Source of the DNA: Mobula hypostoma
Taxonomy: Eukaryota
DNA length: 64,000 nt
NCBI RefSeq assembly: GCF_963921235.1
Contig: NC_086097.1
Location: 47,556,001 to 47,620,000 of the forward strand
Reading direction: 5' to 3'
Part shown: in pieces, positions 1 through 64,000 of the stretch
How the letters are laid out: each line of letters opens with the position of its first letter
Numbering within the stretch: the stretch's first letter is position 1
Notes under the pieces: model-generated
Databases searched by the model: none
What the model was told of the DNA's origin: nothing
Seen by the model: the letters and a program-made list of their open reading frames with translations, nothing else
Position numbers and translations under genes: made by a program

Positions 1-573
1 TCTGCTTAACAATTGCTTTCTATTCCTTTTGATATCAATGTAATCTTTTTCTTGTACTTTATCCAATATTCAGATCATTCGGTAAAATAACTCAACACAA
101 TCTATGGTCTAACCTAGACTTTAGTTGTTCTACAAATCTGGATTCTATTCCTCCAGAAAAGGAACTGCAATCTTTGTTCTGATGAAGAGTCTTAACTGGA
201 AATATTTAATTCTGCTTTTCCTTTCACAGATGTTACGTGCCCTGCCAAGGATTTCCAGTATTTAATTCTACTATTTTGGTAATTTATATCATTACCTTTA
301 AAAAAAAATGCAAATACGTACACCTACTTACCACTTTACCTCTATTGAATTATATTTTATTAACTTATTTATGGTAATATTTTGTTCTATGCACAGTGTG
401 TGATACATGTACTGTGGTGCACTGTGGTCTGGAGAAACATTTTGTTTGGTTGTATATGGGTCAGAGGACAATAAACTTGAACTATTTCATTTGGATTCTT
501 ATGGTTACGTTTCATGGCACAAAATAATTCGTTAGTTAAATGCAAATGAATAGGCAAAATAAATTATACTTGC

Positions 574-9600: not shown

Positions 9601-11802
9601 AACACCAGGAAAACCAAAGAGCTGGTCATTGACTACAGGGGAAGAAGCTAAAGGTTCATAAACCAGTCCTCATTAGGGGATCAGAGGTGGAGAGGGTCAG
9701 TAGCTTAAAATTCCTTGACCGGCATTAGCAAACCTGAGGATATGATGGCAAGTAGATTCCATCACAGAGAAGGCATGACAGAACCTCAACTTTCTTAGGA
9801 GATTGCATAGATTCAGCATGACACCAAAAACTTTGACAAACTTCTATAGATGCACAGTGGAGAGTTCCTAACTGGTTGCATCACAGCCTGGTATGGAAAC
9901 ACCAATGCCCAGAAACTGAAATGTCTACAGAAAATGTTGGATACGGCACAGTCCATCACAGACAAACCTCTCCCCACCAGTGAGTATATTTATATGAAGC
10001 ACTGCCACAAGAATGCAGAAACCATCAAAGACCTCCAGCATCCAGGCTATGCTTTCAGGCAGAAGGTACACCACAAGGTACAGGAAATTATTACCCTATA
10101 ACCATCACACTCCTGAACCAGCGTGGTTAATTAACTTCACTGACTACAACTCTAACCTGATTTTATGACCTACAGACTCACTGTCAAGGACACTTTTACC
10201 GCTCACGTTCCCAGCATTATTTATTTTTTATATCTGCACACTAATACACTGGTTGTGTCAGTCTTCCGGTAGTTTTTGTAGATTCCATTGTATTTTTTTA
10301 ATTTTTCCTGTAAATGCCTGCAAGAAAATGATTCTCAGGCTATTATAATGTAATGTATTTGCACTTTGATCATAAATTTACTTTGAACTTGTTGCTTTTA
10401 TGTGCATCAATGAATTGGATGCAAGAAGTGTGATTGGAAGTTGAAAGCATCATGGATGATATAGCCCAGATGGGAATATGGGGAGAGCATTGGCAGATAA
10501 AATTTAATCCCAAATTTGTGGTGATATTTTTGGTAAATCAAATGGGGTAGGATGTATACAGTAAATGATAAGGAGCTAAGGAATATTCATGAAGAGAGAG
10601 ACCTTGGTATTCAGTTCATAGTTCCCTAAAAAGTGGCAACACATGCAGATTCCGTGATGGCATGTGGAATGCTTGGCTTCATAAATCAGGAAAAAGAATA
10701 CGAAAATTAGGAGGTTATGTTGCTACTTTACAAAATACTGTACTAGTCATTTGGTGTATTGTAAGACATTGGGGTCACTACCATTTGGAAATATGTGATT
10801 GTGCTGCAGGGATTCCAGAGCAGATGAACCATGATGCTGCCTGGATGGAGGGGTATAGTTATGGGGAGAGATTGGATAGGCTGGATTGGTTTTCCTTTGA
10901 AAAAAGGTGGGGAGAGGAAGAGGTCACCTGATAGAGATAAAACACAATTACAAAGATCCTTTGGTCCTGCCCAAGGGTTCTCTGCTGGAAATCTCGACTA
11001 TGCTCTTTTCCATAGATGCTGAGTTCCTGAAGCATTTTGTGTGTGTTGCTTGAATTTCCAGCATCTGCAGATTTTCTCTTGTTTGTGACAAGTATAAAGA
11101 GATACATGGAATCTTTTTTTCATGGTAGGGATATCAAAAACAAGAGGGCATAAATTTAAAGTAAGAAGTAATTTAAACAGGATTTCAAGAATACAAACAT
11201 AAAATAGTTCGACATAGAAGCAGGCCCTTGCGCACCAGAACATTTAAGCTGCATAAGATCTACATCCTACATTCTCCGCCTGTTTACGTGCCTCTATTAA
11301 CGCCTCAAACACTGCCATCATATGTGTTCCCACCACCTGTCTCGGCAGTGTTCCCAGCACCTACCACTCCACGTAGAAAAAGGCTTTGCTCGAATACCCT
11401 TTAAATTCCCCGCGCCCATTCACCTTAAAAGCTATGTTTACAGATTTCTGATATTTTCACCCTGAGAAAAAGACTAACCATCTATTCTCACATTGTTTTA
11501 TGAACATCTATCGATAGCTGTACTCTTTTGATTCACAATTTTTTTATCCTTATTGTATCACGTTGATGTCACAAATCATTTTGCTTTCTGAGAATATCGT
11601 GCATGCAGTCCAGATCAAGTACAGTACTCCATTCTCCCCCATTAGTGCCGATCCTTTCTCATTCATACGTCCATTAATAGACCTACTTTCTTGCCTTCAG
11701 ATTTGTAGCATCCTATTTCCTTTTTAAAAAATAACACAGAAGCTGACCTTTTCTAACAGCGACCACCACTTTCGGGTTGAGGTCCAGCTGCCCCCAATCC
11801 AT
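574..11802 (-). CDS. XRCC3: XRCC3, RAD51 paralog DNA repair protein; spliced, 6 coding exons in window, final exon beyond left edge
   Basis: Exons 11802-11748, 6706-6569, 5436-5224, 4084-3930, 2598-2386 and 620-574 join in frame (55/138/213/155/213/47 nt). They give [18 protein letters not shown]..., Walker A GESSSGKT and Walker [14 protein letters not shown]. Confidence 0.97.
944..975 (+). mobile_element. Solo Tc1-like terminal fragment
   Basis: TA|CAGTGCCTATAAAAAGTATTCA, the same terminus as the Tc1 element at 21098. Confidence 0.6.
985..1225 (+). mobile_element. CR1-type LINE 3' end fragment
   Basis: Degenerate FFTQ.VV..WN.LP coding remnant followed by a ttctacgttttatg tail. Confidence 0.7.
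2386..2598 (-). CDS. XRCC3: XRCC3 coding exon 5 (Walker B)
   Basis: Acceptor ttttgtag, donor CAG|GTATT, 213 nt; [16 protein letters not shown]...PVICVNQ. Confidence 0.97.
3930..4084 (-). CDS. XRCC3: XRCC3 coding exon 4 ([19 protein letters not shown]...IEHVADV)
   Basis: Acceptor cctttag, donor GTG|GTGAGT, 155 nt. Confidence 0.97.
5224..5436 (-). CDS. XRCC3: XRCC3 coding exon 3 (Walker A)
   Basis: Acceptor ttctccag, donor G|GTAAA, 213 nt; [39 protein letters not shown]. Confidence 0.97.
6040..6230 (+). mobile_element. Degenerate V-SINE (tRNA-derived)
   Basis: V-domain-like gagtttggatgttctcc...ttttcctccaacatttcaaagacatgc. Confidence 0.6.
6569..6706 (-). CDS. XRCC3: XRCC3 coding exon 2 ([24 protein letters not shown]...PVVT)
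   Basis: Acceptor ctctgcag, donor G|GTGTG, 138 nt, phase 1-1; SGPDL motif. Confidence 0.95.
7395..7905 (-). mobile_element. Rex1/Babar-type LINE 3' fragment
   Basis: ORF 7574-7933, [29 protein letters not shown]; ends with AATAAA and a short (atcta)n tail. Confidence 0.8.
8060..11190 (+). mobile_element. Decayed CR1 LINE interrupted by a Rex1/Babar LINE (~8560-10390) and a Penelope pLTR fragment (~10950-11085)
   Basis: CR1 RT remnants (ccagaagactggagg..., gactttagcaaggc) at 8060-8540 resume at ~10395. The inner element has Rex1 motifs ([26 protein letters not shown]) and a ctttgaa tail. Confidence 0.75.
11748..11802 (-). CDS. XRCC3: XRCC3 first coding exon ([18 protein letters not shown], phase-1 end)
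   Basis: ATG at 11802, 55 nt, donor G|GTCAG; resembles the vertebrate XRCC3 N-terminus. Too short to appear in the ORF track. Confidence 0.92.
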
Positions 11803-11859
11803 TGCCCGGGTCGGGCCGCCGCCACCACACTCCGCCCGCTAACGGAGAAAGCGCGCGCC

Positions 11860-11894
11860 GGGTCATGGGTCACGGGTCACGGGTCACGGGTCAC
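11860..11894 (+). repeat. 7-bp tandem repeat (GGGTCAY)x5
   Basis: gggtcat gggtcac gggtcac gggtcac gggtcac, read directly. Confidence 0.95.
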
Positions 11895-11936
11895 CGGGCA
11901 ACTCTGCGCCCTGCCTCTAGGTGGCAGCCCCCCACA

Positions 11937-12185
11937 AACGAAGGGTCTCGGCCCGAAACGTCGATGCTCTACTTTTCCGTAGGTGCTGCCTGGCCCGCTG
12001 AGTTCCTCCAGCATGTTGAAATTCAGAACTCATTTTGTTTAAAACGAAGCTACACGTTCTGATCGGCACTTATCAATGACGCCGCAAACATGTTTTTCTT
12101 AAGGGTTCCGGCCCGAAACGTTGGCTGATCGTTTCCACGGATGCTGCCCGACCTGCTGAGTTCCTCCAGCGTGTTGTGAGTGTTT
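11937..12185 (+). mobile_element. Two tandem Penelope pLTR-derived fragments within the bidirectional promoter
   Basis: aagggtctcggcccgaaacgtcga...gctgagttcctccagcat (11937-12020) and aagggttccggcccgaaacgttgg...gctgagttcctccagcg (12100-12185). Confidence 0.8.
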
Positions 12186-12532
12186 TTGTTAAAATTTTAA
12201 ATTTCCGATTTACAACCAGCTGGCGGCAGGAGAGATTTAGTGCCTTGGGATTTGTCCGAGTTTCGACTCTCCCGTCTATCATTGGCTAAAAAAGCCACAA
12301 GTCGATTGGCTGAAGAATAAGGGTTTCGTATGTCAATCGAGTGAGCGCTGATTGGTTAAACGCGCTTAATCTTGGGTAATTGGTTAATATGATGACAGTA
12401 TGTGGGAAAGTCTTTTATCTGATAGGCTATTATTGTTTTTTGCCTAGTTGAGGCGATACCTGAAAGAGTTGATTGGCTATAGGTAACAAATCCTGACAAT
12501 TGATTGGCCACAGTGTTGGACAGCGTTTATGA

Positions 12533-38472
<25,940 letters not shown>

Positions 38473-44000: not shown

Positions 44001-47000
44001 GGCTTATGTTATTTAGTTAGATTTAAAAAAAGTGATAAATTTTTGTAAGAGATGCACAAAATTCAGACATATTTACCATAAAGAAACTGCGAGCACTGTA
44101 CAAAACCGTCTTCCATTTCTTCACATTTATCTGCTGCTGTTTCAACATCACTAATTGTAGTGGCAAAAATGGCAGCACCAGATTCCACAAGGAGCTTGCA
44201 GAGTTGGACACTGTTGCATGAAGCAGCACAGTGTAGTGGGGTCCTGAAAAGATAAAGTCTATTTGAGATGATTTTCAAAATAAAAGTCACTCAGAAGCCA
44301 AGCTAAGCATACATCTTAGAATTATGAAAATCACCCTTTCACATATAGAAAAGCATAGTTGTTTAAATCACAGGAACAGCTTTCCCAATTGTTAAAATAA
44401 CACAACTAGAGACACTCTGGTATGTGCAATCAGTTCTTTAGTAGAGATAATATCATTAGCTTTGTAAGGAAATATCATTTTGGGGAAAAGTAGTAATGCT
44501 AGCTTTTGTCCAGAAAAACAATTCTGTGAATTTTACTCAGCAATTTATAGGACATATTCTCAGTTTATTTAAAGACTTCATGCAAATCCTAGAACAACTT
44601 TTAATTAAATGAGTGCATGAGAGATTTGATTTGAATTAGGGAGCTTAAGGTACAGGAACTCTTTGGAGATGGTGATCATAATATGACAGAATGCAAACTG
44701 CAATTTGAGAGAGAAACAAAAATCAAATGTATTAGTACTACAGTGGAGTAAAAGCAAACTAGAGTCATGAGAGAGTAGCTGGCTTATGTTGATTTGAAGG
44801 GGATACTAGCAGGAATGATAGTAGAGCAGCAGTGGCCGGAGTTTCTGGACATAATTTGGAAGACACCAGGTCAGTTCATCTAAAGCAGCAGCAGCAACCA
44901 TGGCCAAGGGAAGTTAAAGATGGCATAAAAACAAAAGAGGGCATAGAACGGCAAAATTTAGCAGGAAGCTTTTAAAAACCAACAGTAGGCAAATAAAAAA
45001 GCAATCACAAGAGAAAAGCCAACATGAAGTTAGCATTAGCACAGCTATATGATGTAACTGCCTATCCTGATGCTCCTTCATCATAGCTGGTGATTTCAAC
45101 CAAGCCAGACTTAAGACAGTATTCTCTAAATTTTGCCGGAATGTGAAATCACCATGTTTACACCAATACGGCAGGCACATACAGGGCTCATCCATGTATT
45201 CAACTAGGACTGTCCAACCACCTGCATTTATTCCTAACTCCGGCCCCAGTGATAAGGAAGGCAAAACCAATTACCAAGTCAGTGACAGTAAGGCCTGAGG
45301 GAGTGTCTCACAGCTTCCAGTGCATAAACTGGATCGTGCTTGCATGCCAAGCAATGCATGATTTGAGAATTAACTTAAAGGAATACGCCATCACGGTCAT
45401 GCACTATATCAAATAGTGTGTAGACAGTGTAACCAGCAATAAAAATATCTGCGTATTCCTGAATGAGAAGCCATAGATGTACAAAGCCAGGAAACAACTT
45501 AGGGCTTGGGATGCTGTGTTCAGTTTAACAGAGACAATGAATCAGTGATGAAGGCCTTGACACCCGAGAAGGACACAGTGCTGACACTGAGCACACAAGG
45601 TTTCAAAGTTTCAAAAATACATTAACGTCAGAGAAATATAACAATATACATCCTGAAATGCTTTTTCTTTGCAACCACCCACAAAAACAGAGGAGTGCCC
45701 CAAAAAATGAATGACAGTTAAGTGTTAGAATCCCAGAGTTCTGCTCAGCTCCCCCTTCCCACGTGCAAGTTGCAACAAGCACGATCCCCCTTCCCACCAC
45801 CGGCAAAAAAGAAAGTATCAGCACCCATCACTGAGCACTCAAGCATGCAGCAAAAGCAACAGCACTACTGACACAGACTTGCAGCACTCCAAAGACTACA
45901 TTGTTCACCCAGCATTTGACATACCACAGGCTCCCTCCCTCCCTAATAAGGGAGAAATATGTCTCTGTTTCACAGCGAGAGGGAAGACATAACAAACAAC
46001 TCGCTGGTCTACGATGTTAAAAGTCCATTGCATTGCTTTATTCGAGCTCTGTGCCTAAAGATCTCAAGTCTCTGGGCACACGCCAAAGATGTACTCTCCA
46101 CAATATTCAAGCACACAGAGCAGCTGGACCAGATGGCATACCTGGGTGAGTTCTCAGGGATTGCGCTGACCAGCTAGCAGAGGCAGAGGTCTGTGCCTTG
46201 CTGTGATCTCTGCTTGCTTCAAAACATCAACCACCATATCATTCCCAAAGCAATCAGCGGTAATATACTTCAACTACAGACTGGTCGCACTCACGCACCC
46301 ATAGCTGCCAAATGCCTGGAGAGACTAGTTATTTCCCACATACAGTGCCATCACTGCTACTCGGGACCAGCACCACTTTGCCCAAATGGCAAACAGATCA
46401 ACCGAGGATGCCACCTCCATCGCTCTCCACATCGTACTGGAACACCTGCAGCATAAGGACACCGATGCCAGAACGCTTTCTAATCTACTATAGTTCAGCT
46501 TTCAACACTATACTCCCGAACAAGTTGACCATTAAACTACACAGTCTGGCATTGAGTACGTCAATTTCCAACTGGATTCTGGAATTTCTTACCAATTGCA
46601 CCCATATAGTCAGACTGGGTAAGTACACATCAACCTCCCTGACCCTGAACACCAGTGCACTGCAGGGATGTGTACTGAGCCCAGTCCTTTACACTCTTTT
46701 CACCCATGACTGTGCCCCTGTCATGTCACCAACTCTATCATCAAATTTGCAGACAACGCCACAGTAAATGGATTAGTTATAAATAACAACAAAACAGCAT
46801 ACAGAGAAGAGACACAGAAACTGACTGAATGGTGCAATAACCATTTCACTCACTATCAAAAAAATGATTATCAATTTCAGAAAATCAAGTAGGTCTGAAC
46901 AAGCTCCACTACTCCTAATTGGTAAAGCAGTGGAGGTCTCTAGCTTGAGGTTCTTGAGAGTCAACATCAGAGAGGAGCTCTCTTGGACCAACAACTCCAA

Positions 47001-50000
47001 GAAGGCTCAGCAGTGCTTATACTATCTTAGGAGATTAAAGAGAGAAAATCACCCCAAAAGCTGCTGCTAAACTTCTACCAATGTGCCACAGAGTGCATAC
47101 TGACCTACTGCATGATAGCATGGTACACTAGCTGCAACAAGATCGACCAAAACACACTTCAACAAGTGATTAGCACTGCACAGAAGGTTTTTGGGACACA
47201 ACTATCAGATATGTTCAATCTCCTACTATCGAGCAGGAGAAACAGAAACATCTCCGCATGAACATACAGGCCAAAAAAAAACTTTTTACCCAGGGCTGCC
47301 GTGCAACTTAACAATGACCCCCCCACCCACCCATAGTCACGATGGACAACCTCCAAGTGCAATACATGGGCATGTGTACTATTTGGATTTAATTAGGGCA
47401 CCTACCTTTCTTTGATTTCAGTGTTCTTCATTAAATTTCAGCTTTAATTCTCCATGCTATCCTACACTTAATCACTGTATTTTATAACATGGGCATGTGC
47501 AATACCTGAATGGGGCAGCCACTGTTTCTTTTAATTTAGAGTTGCTTGTTTTTAATTCAGTGTAACATAGATGTCATTCTAAGTAACTTGGACATTGTTT
47601 TAGTCATGGTGCTTTTAGTAATTGAATTGCCAGGATGCAGTTTTGCACTGAATGGAGTAGCACTGCAATCTCATCCCGAGCAATGACAATAAAGCTCTAA
47701 TCGACAAGATAAAATATGAATGTAAGATAGCCAATAATATAAAAGGGGATATCAAAAGTTTTTTTTCAGATATGCAAATAATAAAAGAGAGGCATCAGAC
47801 TGCTGGAAAATGACACTGGAGAGTTGGTAACGGGGTCAAAGAAATGGTGGCTGATATTTTGCATCAGTCTTCACTGTGCAAGGCACCATCAGTATGCCAG
47901 AGATTTGAGTGTCGGGGGAAAAAGTGAGTGCTGCTACTACTAAACAGAAGGTGCTTGGGAAGCTGAAAGATCTTAAAGTAGGTATGTTGCCTGGGCCAGA
48001 TGCGCTACACCTCAGGGCTCTCAAAGAGGTAGTTGAAGAGAATGTGCAGGTATTAGTAATGATCAAGAATCAATAGTTCCAGAGGACTAGACTATCCCAA
48101 ATGTCACTTTTTAAGAAGGGACTTCAGTGGTTGGCCTTTACTAAGGAATAGATTTCAGAATACTTGGAGGCGCATGATAAAATATGCCAAAGGGGAATAA
48201 TGATGGGAAATCTTGCCTAACAAATATGTTAAAATTCTTTGAGGCAGTAGCAAGCATGATAGACAGAGAGTCAACGGATGTTGTTTACTTGGCTCTTCGG
48301 AAGGCCTCTGACAAGATGCCACACACGAGGCTGCTAAACAGGATAAGACCTATGGTTTTACAGAAAAGATGCTAGAATGCACAGAATATCAGCTAACTGG
48401 CAGAAGGCAAAGAGTGGGAATAAAGGTGGCCTTTTCTAGTTGACTGCTGGTAACTAGTGGTATTCCACAGGGTCAGTGTTGGATCCGCTACTTTTCACAT
48501 TATATGTTAATGATCTGGATGACAGAATTCAAACACGAGGAAATCTGCAGATGCTGAAATTTCAAGCAACACACATAAAAGTTGCTGGTGAGAAACAAAA
48601 ATCAAATGTATTAGTACTACAGTGGAGTAAAAGCAAACTAGAGTCATGAGAGAGTAGCTGGCTTATGTTGATTTGAAGGGGATACTAGCAGGAATGATAG
48701 TAGAGCAGCAGTGGCCGGAGTTTCTGGACATAATTTGGAAGACACCAGGTCAGTTCATCTAAAGCAGCAGCAGCAACCATGGCCAAGGGAAGTTAAAGAT
48801 GGCATAAAAACAAAAGAGGGCATAGAACGGCAAAATTTAGCAGGAAGCTTTTAAAAACCAACAGTAGGCAAATAAAAAAGCAATCACAAGAGAAAAGCCA
48901 ACATGAAGTTAGCATTAGCACAGCTATATGATGTAACTGCCTATCCTGATGCTCCTTCATCATAGCTGGTGATTTCAACCAAGCCAGACTTAAGACAGTA
49001 TTCTCTAAATTTTGCCGGAATGTGAAATCACCATGTTTACACCAATACGGCAGGCACATACAGGGCTCATCCATGTATTCAACTAGGACTGTCCAACCAC
49101 CTGCATTTATTCCTAACTCCGGCCCCAGTGATAAGGAAGGCAAAACCAATTACCAAGTCAGTGACAGTAAGGCCTGAGGGAGTGTCTCACAGCTTCCAGT
49201 GCATAAACTGGATCGTGCTTGCATGCCAAGCAATGCATGATTTGAGAATTAACTTAAAGGAATACGCCATCACGGTCATGCACTATATCAAATAGTGTGT
49301 AGACAGTGTAACCAGCAATAAAAATATCTGCGTATTCCTGAATGAGAAGCCATAGATGTACAAAGCCAGGAAACAACTTAGGGCTTGGGATGCTGTGTTC
49401 AGTTTAACAGAGACAATGAATCAGTGATGAAGGCCTTGACACCCGAGAAGGACACAGTGCTGACACTGAGCACACAAGGTTTCAAAGTTTCAAAAATACA
49501 TTAACGTCAGAGAAATATAACAATATACATCCTGAAATGCTTTTTCTTTGCAACCACCCACAAAAACAGAGGAGTGCCCCAAAAAATGAATGACAGTTAA
49601 GTGTTAGAATCCCAGAGTTCTGCTCAGCTCCCCCTTCCCACGTGCAAGTTGCAACAAGCACGATCCCCCTTCCCACCACCGGCAAAAAAGAAAGTATCAG
49701 CACCCATCACTGAGCACTCAAGCATGCAGCAAAAGCAACAGCACTACTGACACAGACTTGCAGCACTCCAAAGACTACATTGTTCACCCAGCATTTGACA
49801 TACCACAGGCTCCCTCCCTCCCTAATAAGGGAGAAATATGTCTCTGTTTCACAGCGAGAGGGAAGACATAACAAACAACTCGCTGGTCTACGATGTTAAA
49901 AGTCCATTGCATTGCTTTATTCGAGCTCTGTGCCTAAAGATCTCAAGTCTCTGGGCACACGCCAAAGATGTACTCTCCACAATATTCAAGCACACAGAGC

Positions 50001-53000
50001 AGCTGGACCAGATGGCATACCTGGGTGAGTTCTCAGGGATTGCGCTGACCAGCTAGCAGAGGCAGAGGTCTGTGCCTTGCTGTGATCTCTGCTTGCTTCA
50101 AAACATCAACCACCATATCATTCCCAAAGCAATCAGCGGTAATATACTTCAACTACAGACTGGTCGCACTCACGCACCCATAGCTGCCAAATGCCTGGAG
50201 AGACTAGTTATTTCCCACATACAGTGCCATCACTGCTACTCGGGACCAGCACCACTTTGCCCAAATGGCAAACAGATCAACCGAGGATGCCACCTCCATC
50301 GCTCTCCACATCGTACTGGAACACCTGCAGCATAAGGACACCGATGCCAGAACGCTTTCTAATCTACTATAGTTCAGCTTTCAACACTATACTCCCGAAC
50401 AAGTTGACCATTAAACTACACAGTCTGGCATTGAGTACGTCAATTTCCAACTGGATTCTGGAATTTCTTACCAATTGCACCCATATAGTCAGACTGGGTA
50501 AGTACACATCAACCTCCCTGACCCTGAACACCAGTGCACTGCAGGGATGTGTACTGAGCCCAGTCCTTTACACTCTTTTCACCCATGACTGTGCCCCTGT
50601 CATGTCACCAACTCTATCATCAAATTTGCAGACAACGCCACAGTAAATGGATTAGTTATAAATAACAACAAAACAGCATACAGAGAAGAGACACAGAAAC
50701 TGACTGAATGGTGCAATAACCATTTCACTCACTATCAAAAAAATGATTATCAATTTCAGAAAATCAAGTAGGTCTGAACAAGCTCCACTACTCCTAATTG
50801 GTAAAGCAGTGGAGGTCTCTAGCTTGAGGTTCTTGAGAGTCAACATCAGAGAGGAGCTCTCTTGGACCAACAACTCCAAGAAGGCTCAGCAGTGCTTATA
50901 CTATCTTAGGAGATTAAAGAGAGAAAATCACCCCAAAAGCTGCTGCTAAACTTCTACCAATGTGCCACAGAGTGCATACTGACCTACTGCATGATAGCAT
51001 GGTACACTAGCTGCAACAAGATCGACCAAAACACACTTCAACAAGTGATTAGCACTGCACAGAAGGTTTTTGGGACACAACTATCAGATATGTTCAATCT
51101 CCTACTATCGAGCAGGAGAAACAGAAACATCTCCGCATGAACATACAGGCCAAAAAAAAACTTTTTACCCAGGGCTGCCGTGCAACTTAACAATGACCCC
51201 CCCACCCACCCATAGTCACGATGGACAACCTCCAAGTGCAATACATGGGCATGTGTACTATTTGGATTTAATTAGGGCACCTACCTTTCTTTGATTTCAG
51301 TGTTCTTCATTAAATTTCAGCTTTAATTCTCCATGCTATCCTACACTTAATCACTGTATTTTATAACATGGGCATGTGCAATACCTGAATGGGGCAGCCA
51401 CTGTTTCTTTTAATTTAGAGTTGCTTGTTTTTAATTCAGTGTAACATAGATGTCATTCTAAGTAACTTGGACATTGTTTTAGTCATGGTGCTTTTAGTAA
51501 TTGAATTGCCAGGATGCAGTTTTGCACTGAATGGAGTAGCACTGCAATCTCATCCCGAGCAATGACAATAAAGCTCTAATCGACAAGATAAAATATGAAT
51601 GTAAGATAGCCAATAATATAAAAGGGGATATCAAAAGTTTTTTTTCAGATATGCAAATAATAAAAGAGAGGCATCAGACTGCTGGAAAATGACACTGGAG
51701 AGTTGGTAACGGGGTCAAAGAAATGGTGGCTGATATTTTGCATCAGTCTTCACTGTGCAAGGCACCATCAGTATGCCAGAGATTTGAGTGTCGGGGGAAA
51801 AAGTGAGTGCTGCTACTACTAAACAGAAGGTGCTTGGGAAGCTGAAAGATCTTAAAGTAGGTATGTTGCCTGGGCCAGATGCGCTACACCTCAGGGCTCT
51901 CAAAGAGGTAGTTGAAGAGAATGTGCAGGTATTAGTAATGATCAAGAATCAATAGTTCCAGAGGACTAGACTATCCCAAATGTCACTTTTTAAGAAGGGA
52001 CTTCAGTGGTTGGCCTTTACTAAGGAATAGATTTCAGAATACTTGGAGGCGCATGATAAAATATGCCAAAGGGGAATAATGATGGGAAATCTTGCCTAAC
52101 AAATATGTTAAAATTCTTTGAGGCAGTAGCAAGCATGATAGACAGAGAGTCAACGGATGTTGTTTACTTGGCTCTTCGGAAGGCCTCTGACAAGATGCCA
52201 CACACGAGGCTGCTAAACAGGATAAGACCTATGGTTTTACAGAAAAGATGCTAGAATGCACAGAATATCAGCTAACTGGCAGAAGGCAAAGAGTGGGAAT
52301 AAAGGTGGCCTTTTCTAGTTGACTGCTGGTAACTAGTGGTATTCCACAGGGTCAGTGTTGGATCCGCTACTTTTCACATTATATGTTAATGATCTGGATG
52401 ACAGAATTCAAACACGAGGAAATCTGCAGATGCTGAAATTTCAAGCAACACACATAAAAGTTGCTGGTGAATGCAGCAGGCCAGGCAGCATCTCTAGGAA
52501 GAGGTACAGTCGATGTTTCAGGCTGATACCCTTCGTCAGGACTAACTGAAGGAAGAGCTAGTAAGAGATTTGAAAGTGGGAGGGGGAGATCTGAACTGAT
52601 AGAAGACAGGAGGGGGAGAGATGGAGCCAAGAGCTGGACAGTTGATTGGCAAAAGGGATATGAGAGGATCATAGGTCAGGAGGCCCAGGGAGAAAGAAAA
52701 GGGGGAGGGGGTGGGAAAAGCCCAGAGGATGGGCAAGGGGTATAATGAGAGGAAGAGAGAGAGAAAAAGAATGTGTGTATATAAATAAATAACGGACGGG
52801 GTACGAGGGGGAGGTGGGGCATTAGCAGAAGTTAGAGAAGTCAATGTTCATGCCATCAGGTTGGAGGCTACCCAGATGGAATATAAGGTGCTGTTCCTCC
52901 AACCTGAGTGTGACTTCATCTTTACAGTAGAGGAGGCCGTGGATAGACATATCAGAATGGGAATGGGAAAAATAAATAAATAAGGGATGGGGTAAGAAGG

Positions 53001-56000
53001 GGAGGTGGGGCATTAATGGAAGTTAGAGAAGTCAATGTTCATGCCATCAGGTTGGAGGCTACCCAGACGGAATATAAGGTGCTGTTCCTCTAACCTATCC
53101 CTCATTCTCAGTGCAACTTGTCAGGCAAAATTCAAGATACATTTTAAAACTGACAAATGTCTTGAAAATATTTTTTGTATTTGCACAACTAATCTTCTTT
53201 TGTGCATTGATTGTTTATTAGTTTTTGTCTGTGGATACTTTTTCATTGATTCTGTTGTATTTCTTTGTTCTATTGTGAATGCCTACAATAAAAGAATCTC
53301 AGGGTAGGATATGGAGAAACATACATACTTTGATAATAATACTAGTTTGAACTCCATTATTGAAGGTAACAGTTTAGAATATCTGGCACAAAGGAATTAT
53401 ACTTGTGTATAACTATGCATTTCCTCTGACTTCGGCAATTGAATCTGATGTTTCCGCCCAGAACTAAATTAGAAAATAACCATACTATTGTCTAATTTTC
53501 ATAAGACATAAAACATGAGCAGAATTAACCTCTTTAGCCTATCAAGTCTACTCCACCATTCCGTCAGCACGCATGGGCCAGAGAGGCAGACAGACAGACA
53601 GAATGAAAGAGAAAGAAATGAGCAAATTTCCTTTTGAGGGAGTCCAAGAAGGCCAATATATCATCAATCATGTCAGGCTGGCAAAGTATAAGAAGGAATG
53701 GATAAAGAAAGAAAGAAAATTCACAGAAAGCCAGGACTTAGAAAATTATGTTTAATTTACACCACTTAATGAATTTTTTTATATAGATCTATATTGCAAA
53801 AATCTATTCATAGCTTTGTAACTGAACTGTAGTTCATAAAACAAGAAACTATTTTCAACTGATTTTCATGTCTTACACAACAAAGTGAACAGCAAACTTC
53901 AATTTGCATGCGTCTTACCATCCATCACTATCCGCTGCATTTGTATTTACACCAAAATCAACAAGGAATTTCACAATATGATGGTGACCAGCACAAACGG
54001 CATTATGTAATGGCGTAATCCCTTCATCATTAGGTTGACTGGGATCATTAACCTGACCAAAAAAAATTTTCAAAAGGTTAACACATCAAATAGCAGTTAA
54101 AACATTACATTCTAATATAGCAATTTTTAATTCCAAGTGCAACAAACAATACAGTAAATAGAGAAAGACTACCTCATAAATGATGCGTTGCACAAGATCA
54201 AATTCTCCCTCTAAGGAAGCATCTAGTAGTAAAGCAAGAGGATCAAATTTTACCCTCATTCCACATCCTGTTCTCTCTGAATCAGGCTTTTTTAAATTTG
54301 TACGTTTAATCTGAGGAAAGACAGAAGAAAATTCAACAATTCAGGCAACAGATATTGGTAACTCAATTTCAAACAGCAAACTACTTGCAGCCCTGAAAAG
54401 GAACTGCAAATGAGATGTCCAGTTCTTTGAGATCGTTGCTAAACAAGTTTGCCACTATTTGCAACTAGCATTCTGTGCCTTTTTTTTGAGTATACACAAA
54501 ATGTTAATTTAATTTCACTGCTATTTACTTATTCTGCAATTCAATTTCTCCAGCCTTAGTTACCTTGCCTGACCATTTTCTAAATACGTACCGATTGGTT
54601 GTTATGTCTGTTTTTCTATTTTCCCCACGAACTGACACTTGTACAAGAAATCCATTTACTCATCTTTGCCTTCATCTTCCACTTGGCAATTGGCAGGAAT
54701 GCAGTGTATTTTTTTTTGACATTTTAAACTTTTTTCTTTGATTTAATGTCATCTTTAATTTTGCTTGATAGCTGTAGCTGGATCAAGTTACCTGAACTTT
54801 TTTGCCTTACATTAAAATAATATTACTTGTAGACCAATTCTTAAAGAGCTAGCCATTACTCATTTACTGTCACATTTTTAATGTAGCTTTCTTATCTTGG
54901 CCAACTTGACCTTCAGATTTAAGACCCTAATTTCAGATTGAAACCAATCACGTCAAACTTTTATAAAATTTTACTATCTTATGATCACTGTTCCCTAAAG
55001 GCCTCTCAACTACTATTTACATTGCTTTCTCTAGTACAATACTAGATCTAAAACAATTTGCTACTTTATTAATTTCATACATTAAAATGCTGAGAAATCT
55101 ACTTTTGCTACTTATTTGGTTTGCCCAGTGTGTACATCCAGATTTAAAGTCCCCATGATTGTTATATTACCCTTCCCAGACGCCTCTCTAATTTCACAAC
55201 TTATTAACAATACTCCCTCCTATGTTTGCTGGCAATTGCTATTTCATAGTTCCCCACAACCTCCCAAAATGAACTCTACTCCTTCATATTTCAAGCTAGT
55301 TCCCCCCCACCCCCATCAGATCTCCTTTTCCATACTGCCTAAATGCTTAGTAGAATCGTCCACAATTACGTTTCTATACAGGTTAGATCCTACTAGTTTG
55401 TTCCTATTCACTTGTCTTGTTATGAATTAACACACATCCTGTTATAAATATTATGCACCTTCATATAAAGCCTATACTTTTGTTTTAATAAGCTTTTTCC
55501 TCTGCTCTGATTCTAGCTGGAGATATACTATCACGTTTGTCTTTACTGTCCCCTCCTGACAGACTCTGGCTAGCATTACTGATTTTACTACCCAAGCTCC
55601 ATCTTTTTACTTACTGAATTTCCCCACGCTAAAACCACACTTTTCACCAGTTTAACAACTTACTTACCTACATCCCTAGTTATTCACTTCACTGGGATTC
55701 TTATCCCAGCCTGATTTTAGTAAAGCCCATTTCAAAAGAATAGCTCCTACTTTTCAAGGCCCGAATTGAAATCTACAGTTCACACAATGTTTGAAACAGG
55801 TCTTCAATTGTCTGAGCTTATTTTTTTCTGTGCCAATATGAAAATTTTTTTAGGTAGTGATCCAGAAATTAAATTTGTGGTTCTACTTTCTAAATTGCAC
55901 CCTAGCTGCTGATATTCCCTCAACAGAAACCCCTCTTTTGTCCTACATCGATTCAGGCATCAATAACTGAATCATTCCTTTCTCATTCAAAATTCTTCTG

Positions 56001-57998: not shown

Positions 57999-58509
57999 CT
58001 GATCAGGATATGAAAAATTGTAATACATTTATTAAATTTAAGATTTAAATAGTTATCGCATTTTGATAAAATTTATAACACCCATTTCGTTTCCCCAGTC
58101 TGCCACAGCCTATGTAGCAGGGTGGAAGGAAACACAACAACATTTTGGGAACATGAAAAAATTATCTAATGCCACTTATGCATCTAACGTATGCAACCAG
58201 TTGAGTTTTTATTAATAATGAATTCATATTTGCTCAGAAGACCTACTATAAATAGTAGTATTAGGTGATAAGTAACAAATTACAGCACAATAGAATTATT
58301 TTCTTAAAGAATTTGCACAAGTCTAATGAGCCAGCACTTAAACAACATTGCAAACCTTGTATCATTAGTTATCAGTACGCAAATTTCAAATAAAACTTCT
58401 ATCTTAATTGTCTTAAAGGAACAATAAACAAGTTATTTCCATGAATCTGTTAGTTACATTTATCAAAGAAATAGAAAGTAATATAATGGTAGCCAGAAAA
58501 TAATGGAAT

Positions 58510-58658
58510 GCAACACACATAAAAGTTGCTGGTGAACGCAACAGGCCAGGCAGCATCTCTAGGAAGAGGTGCTGCCTGGCCTGTTGCGTTCACCAGCAAC
58601 TTTTATGTGTGTTGCTTGAATTTCCAGCATCTGCAGAATTCCTGTTGTTTGCGTTTTT
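58510..58658. mobile_element. Palindromic Penelope pLTR-derived insertion (51-bp stem)
   Basis: Arms 58510-58560 and 58565-58615, 4-nt loop; exact 16-bp TSD AAATAATGGAATGCAA at 58498-58513 and 58659-58674. Confidence 0.88.
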
Positions 58659-61600
58659 AAATAATGGAATGCAATCAGTGACTTTGGAAATTTCAGTCAA
58701 GTAATTGATATTTAACCTTTTTTCACATTCAGTTGTTCTTTCAAGATAAGTATACTTGCAAGTGAAAAAAACATTTCTATAAATATTGACTGCACAAATT
58801 TAATGATCAACTAAATTCAAATGATTTGTGTCATCGTTTTGCTCTGAATTTCCAAAAAAGCAAAGTACATCTCTTACTTTGTCTGCATCCTCAATTCTCA
58901 ACAAACATCAGAAAGAAATGGACAACTTGAAAAGAAAACCCAAATCTCTGCACTAGTTTCTTTCACTGTTTTTTTGTTTTCACCTCCATTCTGCAATTTG
59001 AGTAACACTGAGTTACAGCTCCAACCACCTATACCTAGACCAAGTGGCTAATATTACTGTAAGAGATTAAAAGCCATTTATCCAACTTTGGAAGTGAGGG
59101 ATTACCATCACTACCATGCTGCTTCTAGCTAGTATTCACATCTACATTTCTAGCAAAAGAGGTCACTAAACAGCTAAATGGGGCACCACAGCCATCTTCC
59201 CCTGCAGAATCCCCAAACCGCACTAAAGCTAATTGTTAAGGATAATTGAAATTGCAAATTTACTACTTGAAAATAATAAAATTAGCAAATACATCTTATA
59301 AAATTGATGTATATGACAATCTAAGGAAGCATCATAAATCACAGGAGAAGGCCAAAATTGATTTGGTTTATCTGGCAAAGTGTTGTTGACAATATATAGA
59401 GTATTTCATATTTAACTTTATTTGTCTTAGTTATGCCAAGTTTAAGACGACTTTGTGGATCTCTATACTCACCCAGATAATTTAATATCACTTTGAACCT
59501 TTTTTTTTGGTTCTGGTGAAAAGTTATCAAACCAAAATACCAATTTAGTTTCTCCCTCGACAGATGCTTCTTGATTTGTTTAGTAGTTTCAGCATTTACA
59601 TTTTCTAATTTCAGACTCAGAGAATCTTCCACAATTTGCTTTTGCGCAACTTAATAAATCTTGTGCACATATAGTGCACATTTACAAAAAATTTGTAGTG
59701 TATGCATTGTACTCTAAATATTTCCAATTCGCAAGTTATTTTTAATCTTTCTGTTAAAGATATTAAAACAAGGAATTATTTTATAGTTTGAAAATATTCC
59801 TTATTAAAATATACATTTAAGTATATTAGGATATTCAGTGTAATTATTACTCAACATTAACAAGATAAATGACCAGTCTTATTTCTTGTTTGATCTAGTA
59901 AATATAATCATCTAACATCCAACATATCTATGTACCTAATGCTTAGTTTTAGATGCAAATGATTTTTGTTTATTTAGTCAAGGGCAATGCCTGCAAGGCA
60001 ATCTTCTACTTCCCATCAAATTAATGCAGAGAAGACAAACTTTTTTTAAAGTCTCAGTTTTGAGTCGTACCTTACTTTCAGCAAAACCAGATGATCACCT
60101 TTAAGTTTAATAATACAAACAATATTTATTTGTGACTAATGCATAAAAAATGCAATTCAGGAATATCAAGTTTCAAAAATTTTCAATCAGGAAGTTAACT
60201 AATTCTAGGTGCATAGTTAGGAATATGCAGCTTCTAAATTATGTGCAATTACATCGGTGTACTAAAAAGAACACTACAAATATACAATCTAAGCCTTACT
60301 TTTCATATATGTAGAATGAAAAAATGCAGAACTTGATTTAATTTTTCATTTCACGTCAAATTCATTTCCTTTAAATGTGAGTAAAATATTTAATTTACAT
60401 GGCACAAATACTTATAAGTATGAAATAATTGCAACAAAATAATAAATTTGCCATCTTCAAAGCATTACATTTAAGACATGATAAACTATTTCACTGAATA
60501 GGTAATAAAGCACTTTCCTCCTTTAAGCAAAGACAGTAGTAGTTCCACAGACCCAAAATATAGTTTGTCAGGAATAGAAGCTGTCAAATGGATCATCTGT
60601 AGATTTTAGAGAGTCAGTAGAAGAAAATAAAACAGATCCACTATGGCGTCTAAATCTGAAACTTTCCAAATGTCTGAATATTTTTCAAATTCCCACTTGT
60701 TTTTGTCCAAGAAGTCAAAGGGAAGTGAGACACTGAAGGACACAAAGCAAAAGTACACAAATACAAAAGAACAAAATGAATCCAAACAAAGTGTAAAGGT
60801 CAGAAAAACAAAGTTTAAATTGGAAATATAAAGTAATAAAATCATGAAATAGTACTTGAACAAATGTTTGACTAAATTGCGTTATATTAATGTTAAGCCT
60901 TTTAAGAAACTGATATTGCACTACAAAACTAGAGCCTTTTCTGTTTCAGGAGCTTGAGTTTACACCAAGCATGCTAATGTCTGGCACAACATAATTAGAA
61001 GAATTGAACCACCAGACTCAAGAACAGCTTCTAGCACACTGTTTCTAAGACTACTAAATGGTTCCCTAGTATGGTCAATGGACTCTTGACCTCACAATCT
61101 ACCTAGTTACAAGATTGCATCTCATTGTTTACCTGCACTGCGCTCTCTGTAGTTGAATTGATTTGACTTTATTTCTTACATCCTTCGCATACATGAATAA
61201 AACTCTTTTTACATCTGTCTAAATGTGCAATGTGCAAATTATAATTTGTAATAAATAGTATGTACAGCAACAGAACAGCTTAGAAATACAAACTTGGTAC
61301 ACATTATTCTGCATTATTTTTCCTTTAATTTGATCTACCTCAATGCTCTGTGTAATGATTAATCTTAGGAACAGTATACAAGACCAGCTTTTCACTGTAT
61401 CTCAGTACATGTGACAATAATAACCCGATTCCAATAATTTATTAGCCTTGATTTCATTCCACTCTGAACTTCAAAAGGGAAAACCCATTGCAATTAATTA
61501 CCAAACTAAACAGGTTTTATTAGTGGTGTATGAAAACAAAGTCTACTAAATTGCTAATTTGCTTTCGAAAGTCTTTCATTTGAAACTTAAGGCTTCCACA

Positions 61601-62072: not shown

Positions 62073-63845
62073 CACAAGATCACAAAACAAAGGAGCATAA
62101 GTAGGCCATTCGGCCGATCAAGTCTGCTCCACCACTCCACCATGAGCTAAACTATTCTCCCATCTAGTTCCAATTTCCAGCTTTTCCCCCATATCCCTTG
62201 ATATCCTGACCAACTAGATACCTATCAATCCTCCCCTTAAACACCCTCAATGATCAGGCCTCCACAGCTGTATGTGGCAACGAATTCCATAAATCCACAA
62301 CCCTCTGGCTAAAAAAATTTCTCCTCATTTCTGTTTTAAATGGGTACCCTCTAATTCTAAGACAGTGGCCTCTTGTCCTGGACTCACCCACCAAGGGAAA
62401 CAGCCTTTCCACATCTACTCTGTCCAACCTTTTCAACATTCAAAATGTTTCTATGAGATCCCGTCTCATTCTTCTATACTCTAATGAATACAGTCCAAGA
62501 GCCGACAAATGCTCCTCATATGTTAGCCCCTGCATTCCAGGAATCATCCTCATAAATCTTCTCTGAACTCTCTCCAACATCAGTACATCCCTTGTAAGAT
62601 GGGGGGCCCAAAACTGCACACAGTATTCCAAATGAGGTCTCACCAGTGCCCCATAGAGCCTCATCGACACCTCTTTACTCTTATACACTATTCCTCTTGA
62701 AATGAATGCCAACATAGCATTCGCCTTCCTTGCTGCCGATCCAACCTGGTGGTTAACCCTTAGGGTATCCTGCATGAGGACCCCCAAGTCCCTGTGCACT
62801 TCTGATTTTTGAATTTTCTCCCCATCTAAATAATCTGCCCGATTATTATTCCAAAATGTACATTTCTCAACATTGTATCTCATCTGCCATTTCTTTGCCC
62901 ACTCTCCTAAACTGACCAAGTCTCTCTGCAACCTTTCCGTTTCTTCAACACTTCCTGCTCCTCCACCTATCACGGTGTCATCCTCAAACTTAGCCACAAA
63001 ACCATTTAATCCATAATCTAAATCATCGATATACATTGTAAAAAGAACCGGCCCCCACACCAACCCTTGCAGAACACCACTAGTAACCGGGAACCAACCA
63101 GAATAGGATCCCTTTATTCCCACCCTTTGCTTTCTGCATATCAGCCAATGCTCCACCCATTCCAATATCTTTCCTGTAATTCCATGGGCTCTCATCTTAT
63201 TAAGCAGCCTCTTATGCGGCACCTTATCGAAGGCCTTTTAAAGATCCAAATAGACAACATCCACAGCTCTCCCTTGTCAATCTTATTTGAGATTACCTCA
63301 AAAAGTTCCAATAGGTTGGTGAGGCAGGATCTTCCCTTCATGAAACCATGCTGGCTTGGACCTATCTTGTCATGCACCTCGAGGTATTTCATAACCTCGT
63401 CCTTGAGGACTGACTCCAATAACTTTCCAACTACTGATGTCAGACTGATAGGTCTGTAATTTTCTTTTTGCTGCCTCCCTCCTTTCTTAAACAGTGGAAC
63501 TACATTTGCGACCTTCCAGTCCTCCGGAACTATGCCAGAGTCTACTGATTCCTGGAAGGTTATCTCCAATGCCTCCACAATCTCCAAAGCCACCTGCTTC
63601 AGAACCCGTGGGTGCACCCCATCCGGTCCAGGAGACTTATCTGTTCTTAGTCCATTTAGCTTCCCAAGCACTTTCTCTCTCGTAATCTTGAATGAACTTA
63701 ATTCTATTCCCTGAGACCTCTGGCTATCAGGTATGTTGCTAATGTCTTCCACTGTGAAGACTGATGCAAAATACTCATTTCGTTCCTCTGCCATCTCTTT
63801 GTTACCCATTATAATTTCTCCAGCATCACTTTCAATTGGTCCTAT
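62073..63845 (-). mobile_element. CR1-clade LINE, second subfamily, frameshifted
   Basis: ORFs 63192-63809, 62440-63222 and 62254-62439 are consecutive ORF2 pieces; catalytic FADD mutated to FEDD; (TCTTGTGA)-type tail. Confidence 0.93.
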
Positions 63846-63847
63846 AT

Positions 63848-64000
63848 AGTCATACTTTATTGATCCCAGAGGAAATTGGTTTTCGTTACAGTTGCACCAT
63901 AAGTAGTAAATAGTAATAGAACCATAAATAGTTAAATAGTAATATGTAAATTATGCCAGTAAATTATGAAATAAGTTATGAAATATTTAAAACAGTATCC
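63848..64000 (-). mobile_element. 3' end of another LINE (Rex1-type UTR) abutting or inserted in the CR1
   Basis: CR1 similarity stops abruptly at ~63845, followed by catactttattgatccc (minus-strand AATAAA) and AT-rich UTR-like sequence. Confidence 0.5.

What the first reader, a model, noticed from the sequence alone, without database searches (positions are those of the whole stretch)
52508..52543. Dispersed family of minimal hammerhead-ribozyme motifs in Penelope pLTRs
Seen: a recurring motif with consensus (C)AGTC-CTGAYGA-AGGGTCTCGGCCC-GAAA-CG-TC-GACT(G). It has both hammerhead core boxes, a stem II hairpin, stem I formed by AGTC/GACT, and a loopless palindromic stem III (ACGT). The best copy is here on the minus strand, attached to a GIY-YIG C-terminal remnant. 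Other copies lie at 17045-17069(-), 11938-11964, 12100-12125, 37936-37975 and, decayed, near 179, 10965, 12885 and 35315. Known: Penelope-like elements carry minimal hammerheads with palindromic stem III, thought to cleave as dimers. Inference: these genes' introns and promoter are seeded with about 9 ribozyme relics; each copy I can read has a lesion (here CG->CA in stem III, elsewhere loss of CTG).
Basis: partly seen in the sequence, partly recalled or inferred. Interest (0 to 1): 0.7.

Follow-up and report, generated by a model that had tools for sequence, protein, structure and literature searches.

The report
Penelope hammerhead relics in ray introns
The repeated 36-base motif is the already described minimal hammerhead ribozyme motif from the end of a very abundant Penelope-like jumping gene, and the copies in this window, probably from a ray, are mutated or cut short and likely no longer cleave.

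Summary
52543-52508(-) has both hammerhead core boxes, stem I, stem II and a loopless stem III, with the predicted cut between 52512 and 52511. It lies about 280 nt downstream of a Penelope-like GIY-YIG C-terminus that is 95% identical to a Mobula protein. Eight of the nine listed copies beat shuffles, two only narrowly; 12885 does not. The same core in 121 metagenome loci shows stem I covariation and often sits behind the same endonuclease. In four public runs the family majority keeps the CG of stem III, so this copy's CA is a private lesion. One correction: 'loss of CTG' is mostly not decay. 37840-38034 and 12100 are flanked by target-site-like repeats and were likely inserted already truncated or inverted. 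This is the known minimal hammerhead of Penelope-like pseudo-LTRs (PMC4209133), on a likely Neptune-type element. No cleavage was tested. The one open lead is that several 5' junctions fall inside the ribozyme. Low interest.

The parts
52508..52543 (-). Minimal type I hammerhead motif; both core boxes intact, G10.1-U11.1 closing pair, C.A mismatch in stem III; predicted cut 52512/52511; sense in an intron of the PPP1R13B-like gene
52825..52953 (-). C-terminal 43 codons of a Penelope-like GIY-YIG endonuclease (40 of 42 aa identical to P0001)
52972..53096 (-). Partial tandem second copy of the endonuclease end (93% identical, 191 nt spacing); 5' end of the remnant
   Evidence: (D9)
52544..52824 (-). 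Pyrimidine-rich 3' UTR between ORF end and ribozyme motif; related copies diverge from this one right at 52543
   Evidence: loose ends at 52543 in 3 of 4 runs
52409..52507 (-). Segment downstream of the motif, ending at the family terminus 52409; second terminus near 52446, which makes a 36-37 nt tail
   Evidence: (D3)
37840..38034 (.). Palindromic insertion: long arm (-) from the terminus to stem III, short arm (+) from G5 of the core box, joined over 4 shared bases; 15-bp target-site-like repeat at 37825-37839 and 38035-38049
   Evidence: (I6)
58510..58651 (.). Palindromic insertion with no hammerhead core; junction about 10-20 nt downstream of the motif; 16-bp target-site-like repeat at 58498-58513 and 58659-58674
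   Evidence: (I12)
16974..17075 (-). Older subfamily copy; core boxes intact, stem III CA, position 17 U, stem I broken; antisense in a ZFYVE21-like intron; probable inverted arm at 17150-17183(+)
11937..12018 (+). Copy starting inside the first core box; CpGs kept; in the CpG island between the XRCC3-like and ZFYVE21-like genes
12101..12180 (+). Copy starting at stem II, between 12-bp target-site-like repeats (12091-12102, 12181-12192)
10964..11085 (+). Decayed copy with full terminus; core boxes destroyed
35311..35390 (+). Heavily decayed probable copy (13.4 bits against 7.7 best shuffle)
176..249 (+). Heavily decayed probable copy (12.3 bits)
48531..48591 (-). Terminal 61 nt of the 52409 insertion, copied inside a 3879-bp tandem duplication; no hammerhead

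Best explanation
The motif is the minimal type I hammerhead motif in the terminal repeat of a high-copy, likely Neptune-type Penelope-like retrotransposon, and the copies here are insertion leftovers that likely do not cleave. In the parent element the motif follows the endonuclease end and 3' UTR (shown). Its ACGU stem III cannot close a loop, so two copies in a tandem transcript would pair through it and cut after GUC, possibly helped by the element's protein (inferred from PMC4209133 and PMC11167929, not tested here). Reverse transcription likely starts at two sites about 65 and 103 nt downstream of the cut site (two termini shown, mechanism inferred). Most cDNAs are short, so the genome fills with terminal scraps, some joined head to head as palindromes with a one-sided 36-37 nt tail. 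Copies then lose CpGs outside the CpG island. Copies without CTG were likely born that way.
For: Remnant matches full RT-thumb/GIY-YIG proteins of rays, E 4.7e-18. P0001 shows a C-x4-C-x2-C linker, which PMC8557442 assigns to Neptune and Nematis. Anatomy fits the published consensus. Same core in 121 metagenome loci; 28 of 121 have a tblastn hit to P0001, 24 of those 28 upstream on the same strand. Stem I of 4 or more pairs in 40 of 97 distinct motifs against 12.6% in shuffles; G-C/C-G swap 24/15 and A-U/U-A 33/6 in 45 aligned motifs, covariation 0.293 against 0.104. G at 16.2 holds 56-86% of depth in 4 of 4 runs. 157,929 contig records of run X1 lie on 631 bases. Target-site-like repeats at 3 of 8 insertions tested. 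CpG o/e 0.9-1.0 round the copies that keep CpGs, 0.04-0.37 round the other significant copies.
Against: No cleavage assay. Rfam found no hammerhead. A model built from the metagenome motifs scored this copy only E 0.17, among chance hits, and missed 17069. Covariation comes from other organisms' families, and the search pattern fixed the core, three stem II pairs and stem III. The outer stem I pair is unpaired in 24 of 45 motifs. One published representative also has CA in stem III, so CA may not always be decay. No tree was built, so Neptune rests on a motif. 5 of 8 insertions showed no repeat above chance.
Confidence: 0.88

Rival explanations
1. The hammerhead fold or its cleavage sets where cDNA stops and where inverted arms join, so the short insertions record the ribozyme acting in vivo. 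This adds to the best explanation and does not replace it.
For: Long arm of 37840 starts 0-4 nt from the predicted cut; its partner starts at G5; 12100 starts at A9/G10.1; 11938 starts between A6 and G10.1. Summed depth falls 2- to 3-fold between bins 52484-52505 and 52506-52527 in 4 of 4 runs. Many metagenome palindromes join just 5' of the motif.
Against: Only a handful of junctions. The 58510 palindrome joins outside the motif. Short cDNAs are expected from steep 5' truncation alone. The metagenome set was picked for an intact core, which forces one arm past it. Depth is no copy number, palindromes count the tail twice, and this copy has 4 substitutions in the motif. In the anole element, ribozyme mutants did not change insertion and no RNA reads ended at the cut site.
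Confidence: 0.2
2. The short units are a separate non-autonomous family (SINE-, MITE- or retrozyme-like) that spreads on its own from the terminal repeat.
For: Most copies here are 80-200 nt; two are near-perfect hairpins (-142.7 and -111.6 kcal/mol); two lie 158 nt apart; a preprint derives retrozymes from such repeats and reports them in one chondrichthyan.
Against: 5' ends differ from copy to copy while 3' ends are shared. The two palindromes have different centres. The two close copies are of different subfamilies, one with its own target repeat. The best copy is still attached to the ORF end.
Confidence: 0.08
3. The 52543 copy is a kept, working intronic ribozyme that cuts the host pre-mRNA.
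For: It is sense to the PPP1R13B-like gene, keeps both core boxes, and folds stems I and II.
Against: Stem III palindrome is broken where the family majority is intact. No second sense copy with a core lies in that gene within the window. Single minimal motifs showed no cleavage in vitro. It is 91-96% identical to other copies over 105 nt, so it is young.
Confidence: 0.03
4. The hammerhead likeness is chance within an ordinary repeat.
For: No Rfam hit; folding z -0.13; weak model score.
Against: Descriptor chance rate 0.02 per window; covariation and PLE linkage elsewhere; near-identical core in a published coral Neptune element.
Confidence: 0.02

Closest known systems
Minimal hammerheads (min-HHR) of metazoan Penelope-like element pseudo-LTRs (Cervera and De la Pena 2014, PMC4209133)
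   Same: Type I, CUGANGA plus one extra base, G at 10.1, GAAA, loopless palindromic stem III, short stem I, place in the terminal repeat, thousands of solo copies from truncated elements. The Acropora Neptune entry has nearly the same core. G-U closing pairs occur in several published entries.
   Different: No chondrichthyan is in the species lists read. Stem II is 4 bp, at the short end. Activity of this family is untested.
Neptune-clade EN+ Penelope-like elements (PMC8557442)
   Same: RT thumb, Zn-finger-like linker, C-terminal GIY-YIG; 5' truncation, partial tandems, adjacent inverted copy, 30-40 bp tail at one end.
   Different: Only terminal scraps are in the window; no RT region. Clear 12-16 bp target repeats at three insertions. 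Clade not confirmed by a tree.
Poseidon element PAc of the green anole (PMC11167929)
   Same: Hammerhead in the terminal repeat; two termini 30-40 nt apart matching two RT start sites.
   Different: Different clade; there the ORF starts inside the ribozyme, which was not examined here.
Non-LTR retrozymes (bioRxiv 10.64898/2026.07.22.740005)
   Same: Non-coding, type I hammerhead, derived from Penelope terminal repeats.
   Different: Defined by tandem units that each hold a full motif; none is present here.

Membership tests
PLE minimal hammerhead (min-HHR) | CUGANGA and GAAA core boxes with NUH, type I order | tested here: met
   52543 copy; also 17069 for the boxes
PLE minimal hammerhead (min-HHR) | Extra base between 9 and 10.1; G at 10.1 closing stem II | tested here: met
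   A at 52532, G at 52531; partner is U here and in 3 of 4 runs by majority; G-U also in published entries
PLE minimal hammerhead (min-HHR) | Palindromic loopless stem III | tested here: met
   Met by the family majority (G16.2 in 56-86% of depth) and by 11938, 12100, 37941; not met by the 52543 and 17069 copies themselves
PLE minimal hammerhead (min-HHR) | Covariation of stems across families | tested here: inconclusive
   Stem I covaries in metagenome relatives; not testable within rays (no genome); stem II fixed by the pattern
PLE minimal hammerhead (min-HHR) | Location in the terminal repeat behind a PLE ORF | tested here: met
   24 of 28 loci with a protein hit
PLE minimal hammerhead (min-HHR) | Self-cleavage as a dimer | not testable with these tools
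   Contigs cannot show RNA ends; no pile-up of ends listed
Rfam hammerhead families | Covariance-model match | tested here: not met
   No hammerhead among 9 matches at E up to 5
EN+ Penelope-like element | RT followed by C-terminal GIY-YIG | tested here: met
   In homolog P0001: GIY-YIG E 4.6e-4, below Pfam's cut-off; RT-end motifs read by eye; window has only the last 43 aa
EN+ Penelope-like element | Partial tandems, inverted 5'-truncated partner, 30-40 bp one-sided tail | tested here: met
Neptune clade | CX2-5CxxC linker between RT and EN | tested here: met
   Present in P0001-P0003; shared with Nematis
Neptune clade | RT phylogeny | not tested
   No reference set at hand
Non-LTR retrozyme | Two or more consecutive tandem units, each with a complete hammerhead | tested here: not met
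   The only close pair (11938, 12100) lacks the first core box in both

The most novel reading that the evidence does not exclude
The ribozyme shapes its own insertions: cleavage, or the fold of two element RNAs paired through stem III, stops reverse transcriptase inside the 36-nt motif and brings two cDNAs together, so the head-to-head palindromes of ray genomes are a fossil record of the hammerhead dimer working in vivo. With a family this abundant, junction mapping in one genome would make the unknown role of Penelope hammerheads directly testable.
Probability: 0.15. Interest if true: 0.55.

Novelty: new member of a known kind. Interest (0 to 1): 0.15.

Why it matters
As a class it is known, and the copies here look like ordinary leftovers. 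Its use is as a data set. The in vivo role of Penelope hammerheads is still called unclear (PMC8557442), and the one in vitro test found cleavage unnecessary for insertion. A very high-copy, young family with target-site repeats allows counts of junction positions and of sense versus antisense intact cores that low-copy families do not.

Tried and rejected
No whole genome was held, so genome-wide counts and the sense/antisense test could not be run. Rfam: no hammerhead; its mir-4529 hit at 37899-38012 is far below the gathering score and reflects the palindrome. Pattern scans of viral contigs and prokaryote genomes found nothing. The covariance model from 45 metagenome motifs was too specific: 17 matches at E up to 5, mostly chance. 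Monomer folding gave no signal; cofolding cannot model the dimer core and was not used. Read laying showed no pile-up of ends, which contigs cannot show; runs X13 and X15 are only guessed to be RNA, so their higher share of intact stem III (84-86% against 56-66%) is not taken as proof of expression. Inverted junctions in metagenome loci were set aside as biased by the pattern. No target repeat above chance at 52409, 17069, 10965, 35314 or 11938. 12885 rejected as unproven. Lunse et al. (RNA Biol 14:1499) was not held and is known here only through a review. Look-ups of earlier notes by sequence and by words were empty.

Full report
Observation. The motif is present as described. On the minus strand, 52543-52508 reads stem I, CUGACGA, an extra A, a 4-pair stem II, GAAA, CAUC and the second stem I strand. 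Hammerhead numbering is from my own knowledge. The predicted cut falls between 52512 and 52511. A relaxed descriptor, tolerant of a stem III mismatch, hit only this place, against a mean of 0.02 hits in 100 shuffles. A 21-nt core matched 4 places against 0 in 100 shuffles. A profile from 5 copies (52543, 37941, 17069, 11938, 12100) recovered held-out 10965 strongly, 35311 and 176 narrowly above the best of 30 shuffles, and 12885 at chance level. Rfam gave no hammerhead, and the monomer is no more stable than shuffles.

Host and genes. The closest named proteins are from Mobula, Hypanus and Rhinoraja, so the genome is probably a ray. A Rad51-family exon lies at 5168-5503(-). Exons of a FYVE-type gene lie on + from about 12560 to 36600, and ankyrin/SH3 exons on - from 56526 to about 42800. 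The names XRCC3, ZFYVE21 and PPP1R13B are my recall from motifs and gene order, not tool results. The flagged copy is sense in an intron of the last gene; 17069 is antisense in the second; 11938 and 12100 lie in the CpG island between the first two. The gene context of 179 and 37840 is unresolved.

Parent element. Upstream of the motif are a pyrimidine-rich 3' UTR and two tandem ends of a GIY-YIG endonuclease, 191 nt apart. The 43-residue end is 40 of 42 identical to P0001, which has a weak GIY-YIG hit and a C-x4-C-x2-C linker. PMC8557442 (passages) assigns that linker to Neptune and Nematis, so Neptune is likely; no tree was built. Contigs of four public runs were laid on 52330-52960 at 85% likeness: 157,929, 61,827, 7,822 and 7,717 records. 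Shared loose ends fall at 52409 (3 of 4 runs listed) and 52446 (1 of 4), 37 nt apart, the size of the published tail that matches two RT start sites in the anole element (PMC11167929, parts 1-2 of 4). Related copies part from this one at 52543, the outer edge of stem I (3 of 4 runs listed).

Family state against this copy. At 52520 C11.1 has only 33%, 58%, 24% and 35%, while the neighbouring CpG at 52524 is kept in 64-92%. So the G-U closing pair is likely a subfamily state, not a lesion (depth-weighted, biased to copies like this one; 47 rows not shown). G-U closing pairs appear in the published alignment. The two copies that keep most CpGs sit in flanks with CpG o/e 0.9-1.0; the other significant copies sit in 0.04-0.37, which fits methylation-driven decay (inference).

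Structure support. An exact pattern for the core found 121 metagenome loci, from 29 of 64 parts of the collection; their organisms were not determined. Of these, 28 have a tblastn hit to P0001, 24 of the 28 upstream on the same strand; 41 loci had short flanks. Of 99 distinct motifs, 97 had full flanks, and 40 of 97 form 4 or more stem I pairs against 12.6% (highest 21.6%) in 2000 shuffles. In the 45 of 74 distinct motifs with a 28-nt core, 82.2% of cells pair against 69.6%, covariation is 0.293 against 0.104, and slid controls reach at most 0.131. The two inner stem I pairs swap; the outer one is unpaired in 24 of 45. The core, three stem II pairs and stem III were fixed by the pattern and say nothing. 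A model from this alignment scored 11938 at E 0.004 and the flagged copy at E 0.17 among chance hits, and missed 17069.

37936-37975 is the loop of a hairpin insertion: a long minus-strand arm from the terminus up to stem III, a short plus-strand arm from G5, 4 shared bases at the join, and a 15-bp flanking repeat. 58510-58651 is a second palindrome with a 16-bp repeat and no core. 12100 starts at stem II between 12-bp repeats. Random nearby pairs reached these lengths in 0.03-0.33% of 3000 trials, but I chose the windows by eye, and 5 of 8 insertions showed nothing above chance. These copies were likely inserted without the first core box. Inverted 5'-truncated partners and one-sided tails are standard for these elements.

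How it works. Shown: anatomy, linkage to the endonuclease end, two termini, family majority, lesions. Inferred from papers: dimer cleavage through the ACGU palindrome. PMC4209133 (parts 1-2 of 4) found no cleavage by a single motif and low cleavage by dimers. PMC11167929 found protein-assisted cleavage that was not needed for insertion. The flagged copy has a broken palindrome and no sense partner with a core in its gene within the window, so it is likely inert. One published representative also has CA in stem III, which leaves some doubt.

What is known. The motif fits the published consensus (supplement file 2, parts 1-2 of 3; file 1 could not be searched), and a coral Neptune entry has nearly the same core. 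I saw no chondrichthyan in those lists. A 2026 preprint (parts 1-2 of 5 and passages; its supplements were not seen and may name this family) reports hammerhead retrozymes in one chondrichthyan. Searches (listings only, plus passages of PMC6155905) gave no paper on this ray family; the library lacks most subscription papers and repeat databases. Lunse et al. is cited only through passages of PMC6765202. Earlier notes of this scan on the same genome reach the same class (81 notes fit, 8 shown); they are leads, not support.

Open lead. Four arm ends lie inside the motif, one within 0-4 nt of the cut site. The numbers are small, the 58510 join is outside it, and short cDNAs alone could explain the pattern. 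Two earlier notes say ends cluster at the motif's outer edge with little role for the cut site; I could not test this.

Verdict. Real feature, right class, new member of a known kind. Interest 0.15; novel case probability 0.15, interest 0.55 if true.

Noticed in passing
window 44711-48591 and 48590-52470: A 3879-bp tandem duplication with no mismatch over 3881 positions; its right break lies in the Penelope tail. It may be very recent or an assembly artefact.
   Followed up: partly
window 37840-38034 and 58510-58651: Near-perfect hairpins of about 66 and 51 bp per arm that would form long double-stranded RNA if transcribed; possible small-RNA or editing substrates.
   Followed up: partly
window 11250-13500: CpG island between two head-to-head genes, holding two Penelope scraps 158 nt apart that keep their CpGs.
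   Followed up: partly
window 18807-20867(-): 686-codon open frame with a reverse transcriptase domain; other RT pieces at 24613-25662, 46264-46767, 62440-63950 and RNase H at 22745-23680.
   Followed up: no
window 13954-14223: Four to five copies of a roughly 54-nt unit in an intron (D5 and D17).
   Followed up: no
L002 and L003 (one contig): A long Penelope-like ORF, 47% identical to P0001 over 366 aa, between two hammerhead motifs on opposite strands: probably a near-complete element with an inverted 5' repeat.
   Followed up: partly
L082, around 300: A short palindrome whose inverted arm ends in the GAAA box next to stem I, a join inside the motif like that at window 37946.
   Followed up: no
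P0004: A skate receptor gene model ends in a Penelope endonuclease fragment: exon capture or a misannotation.
   Followed up: no
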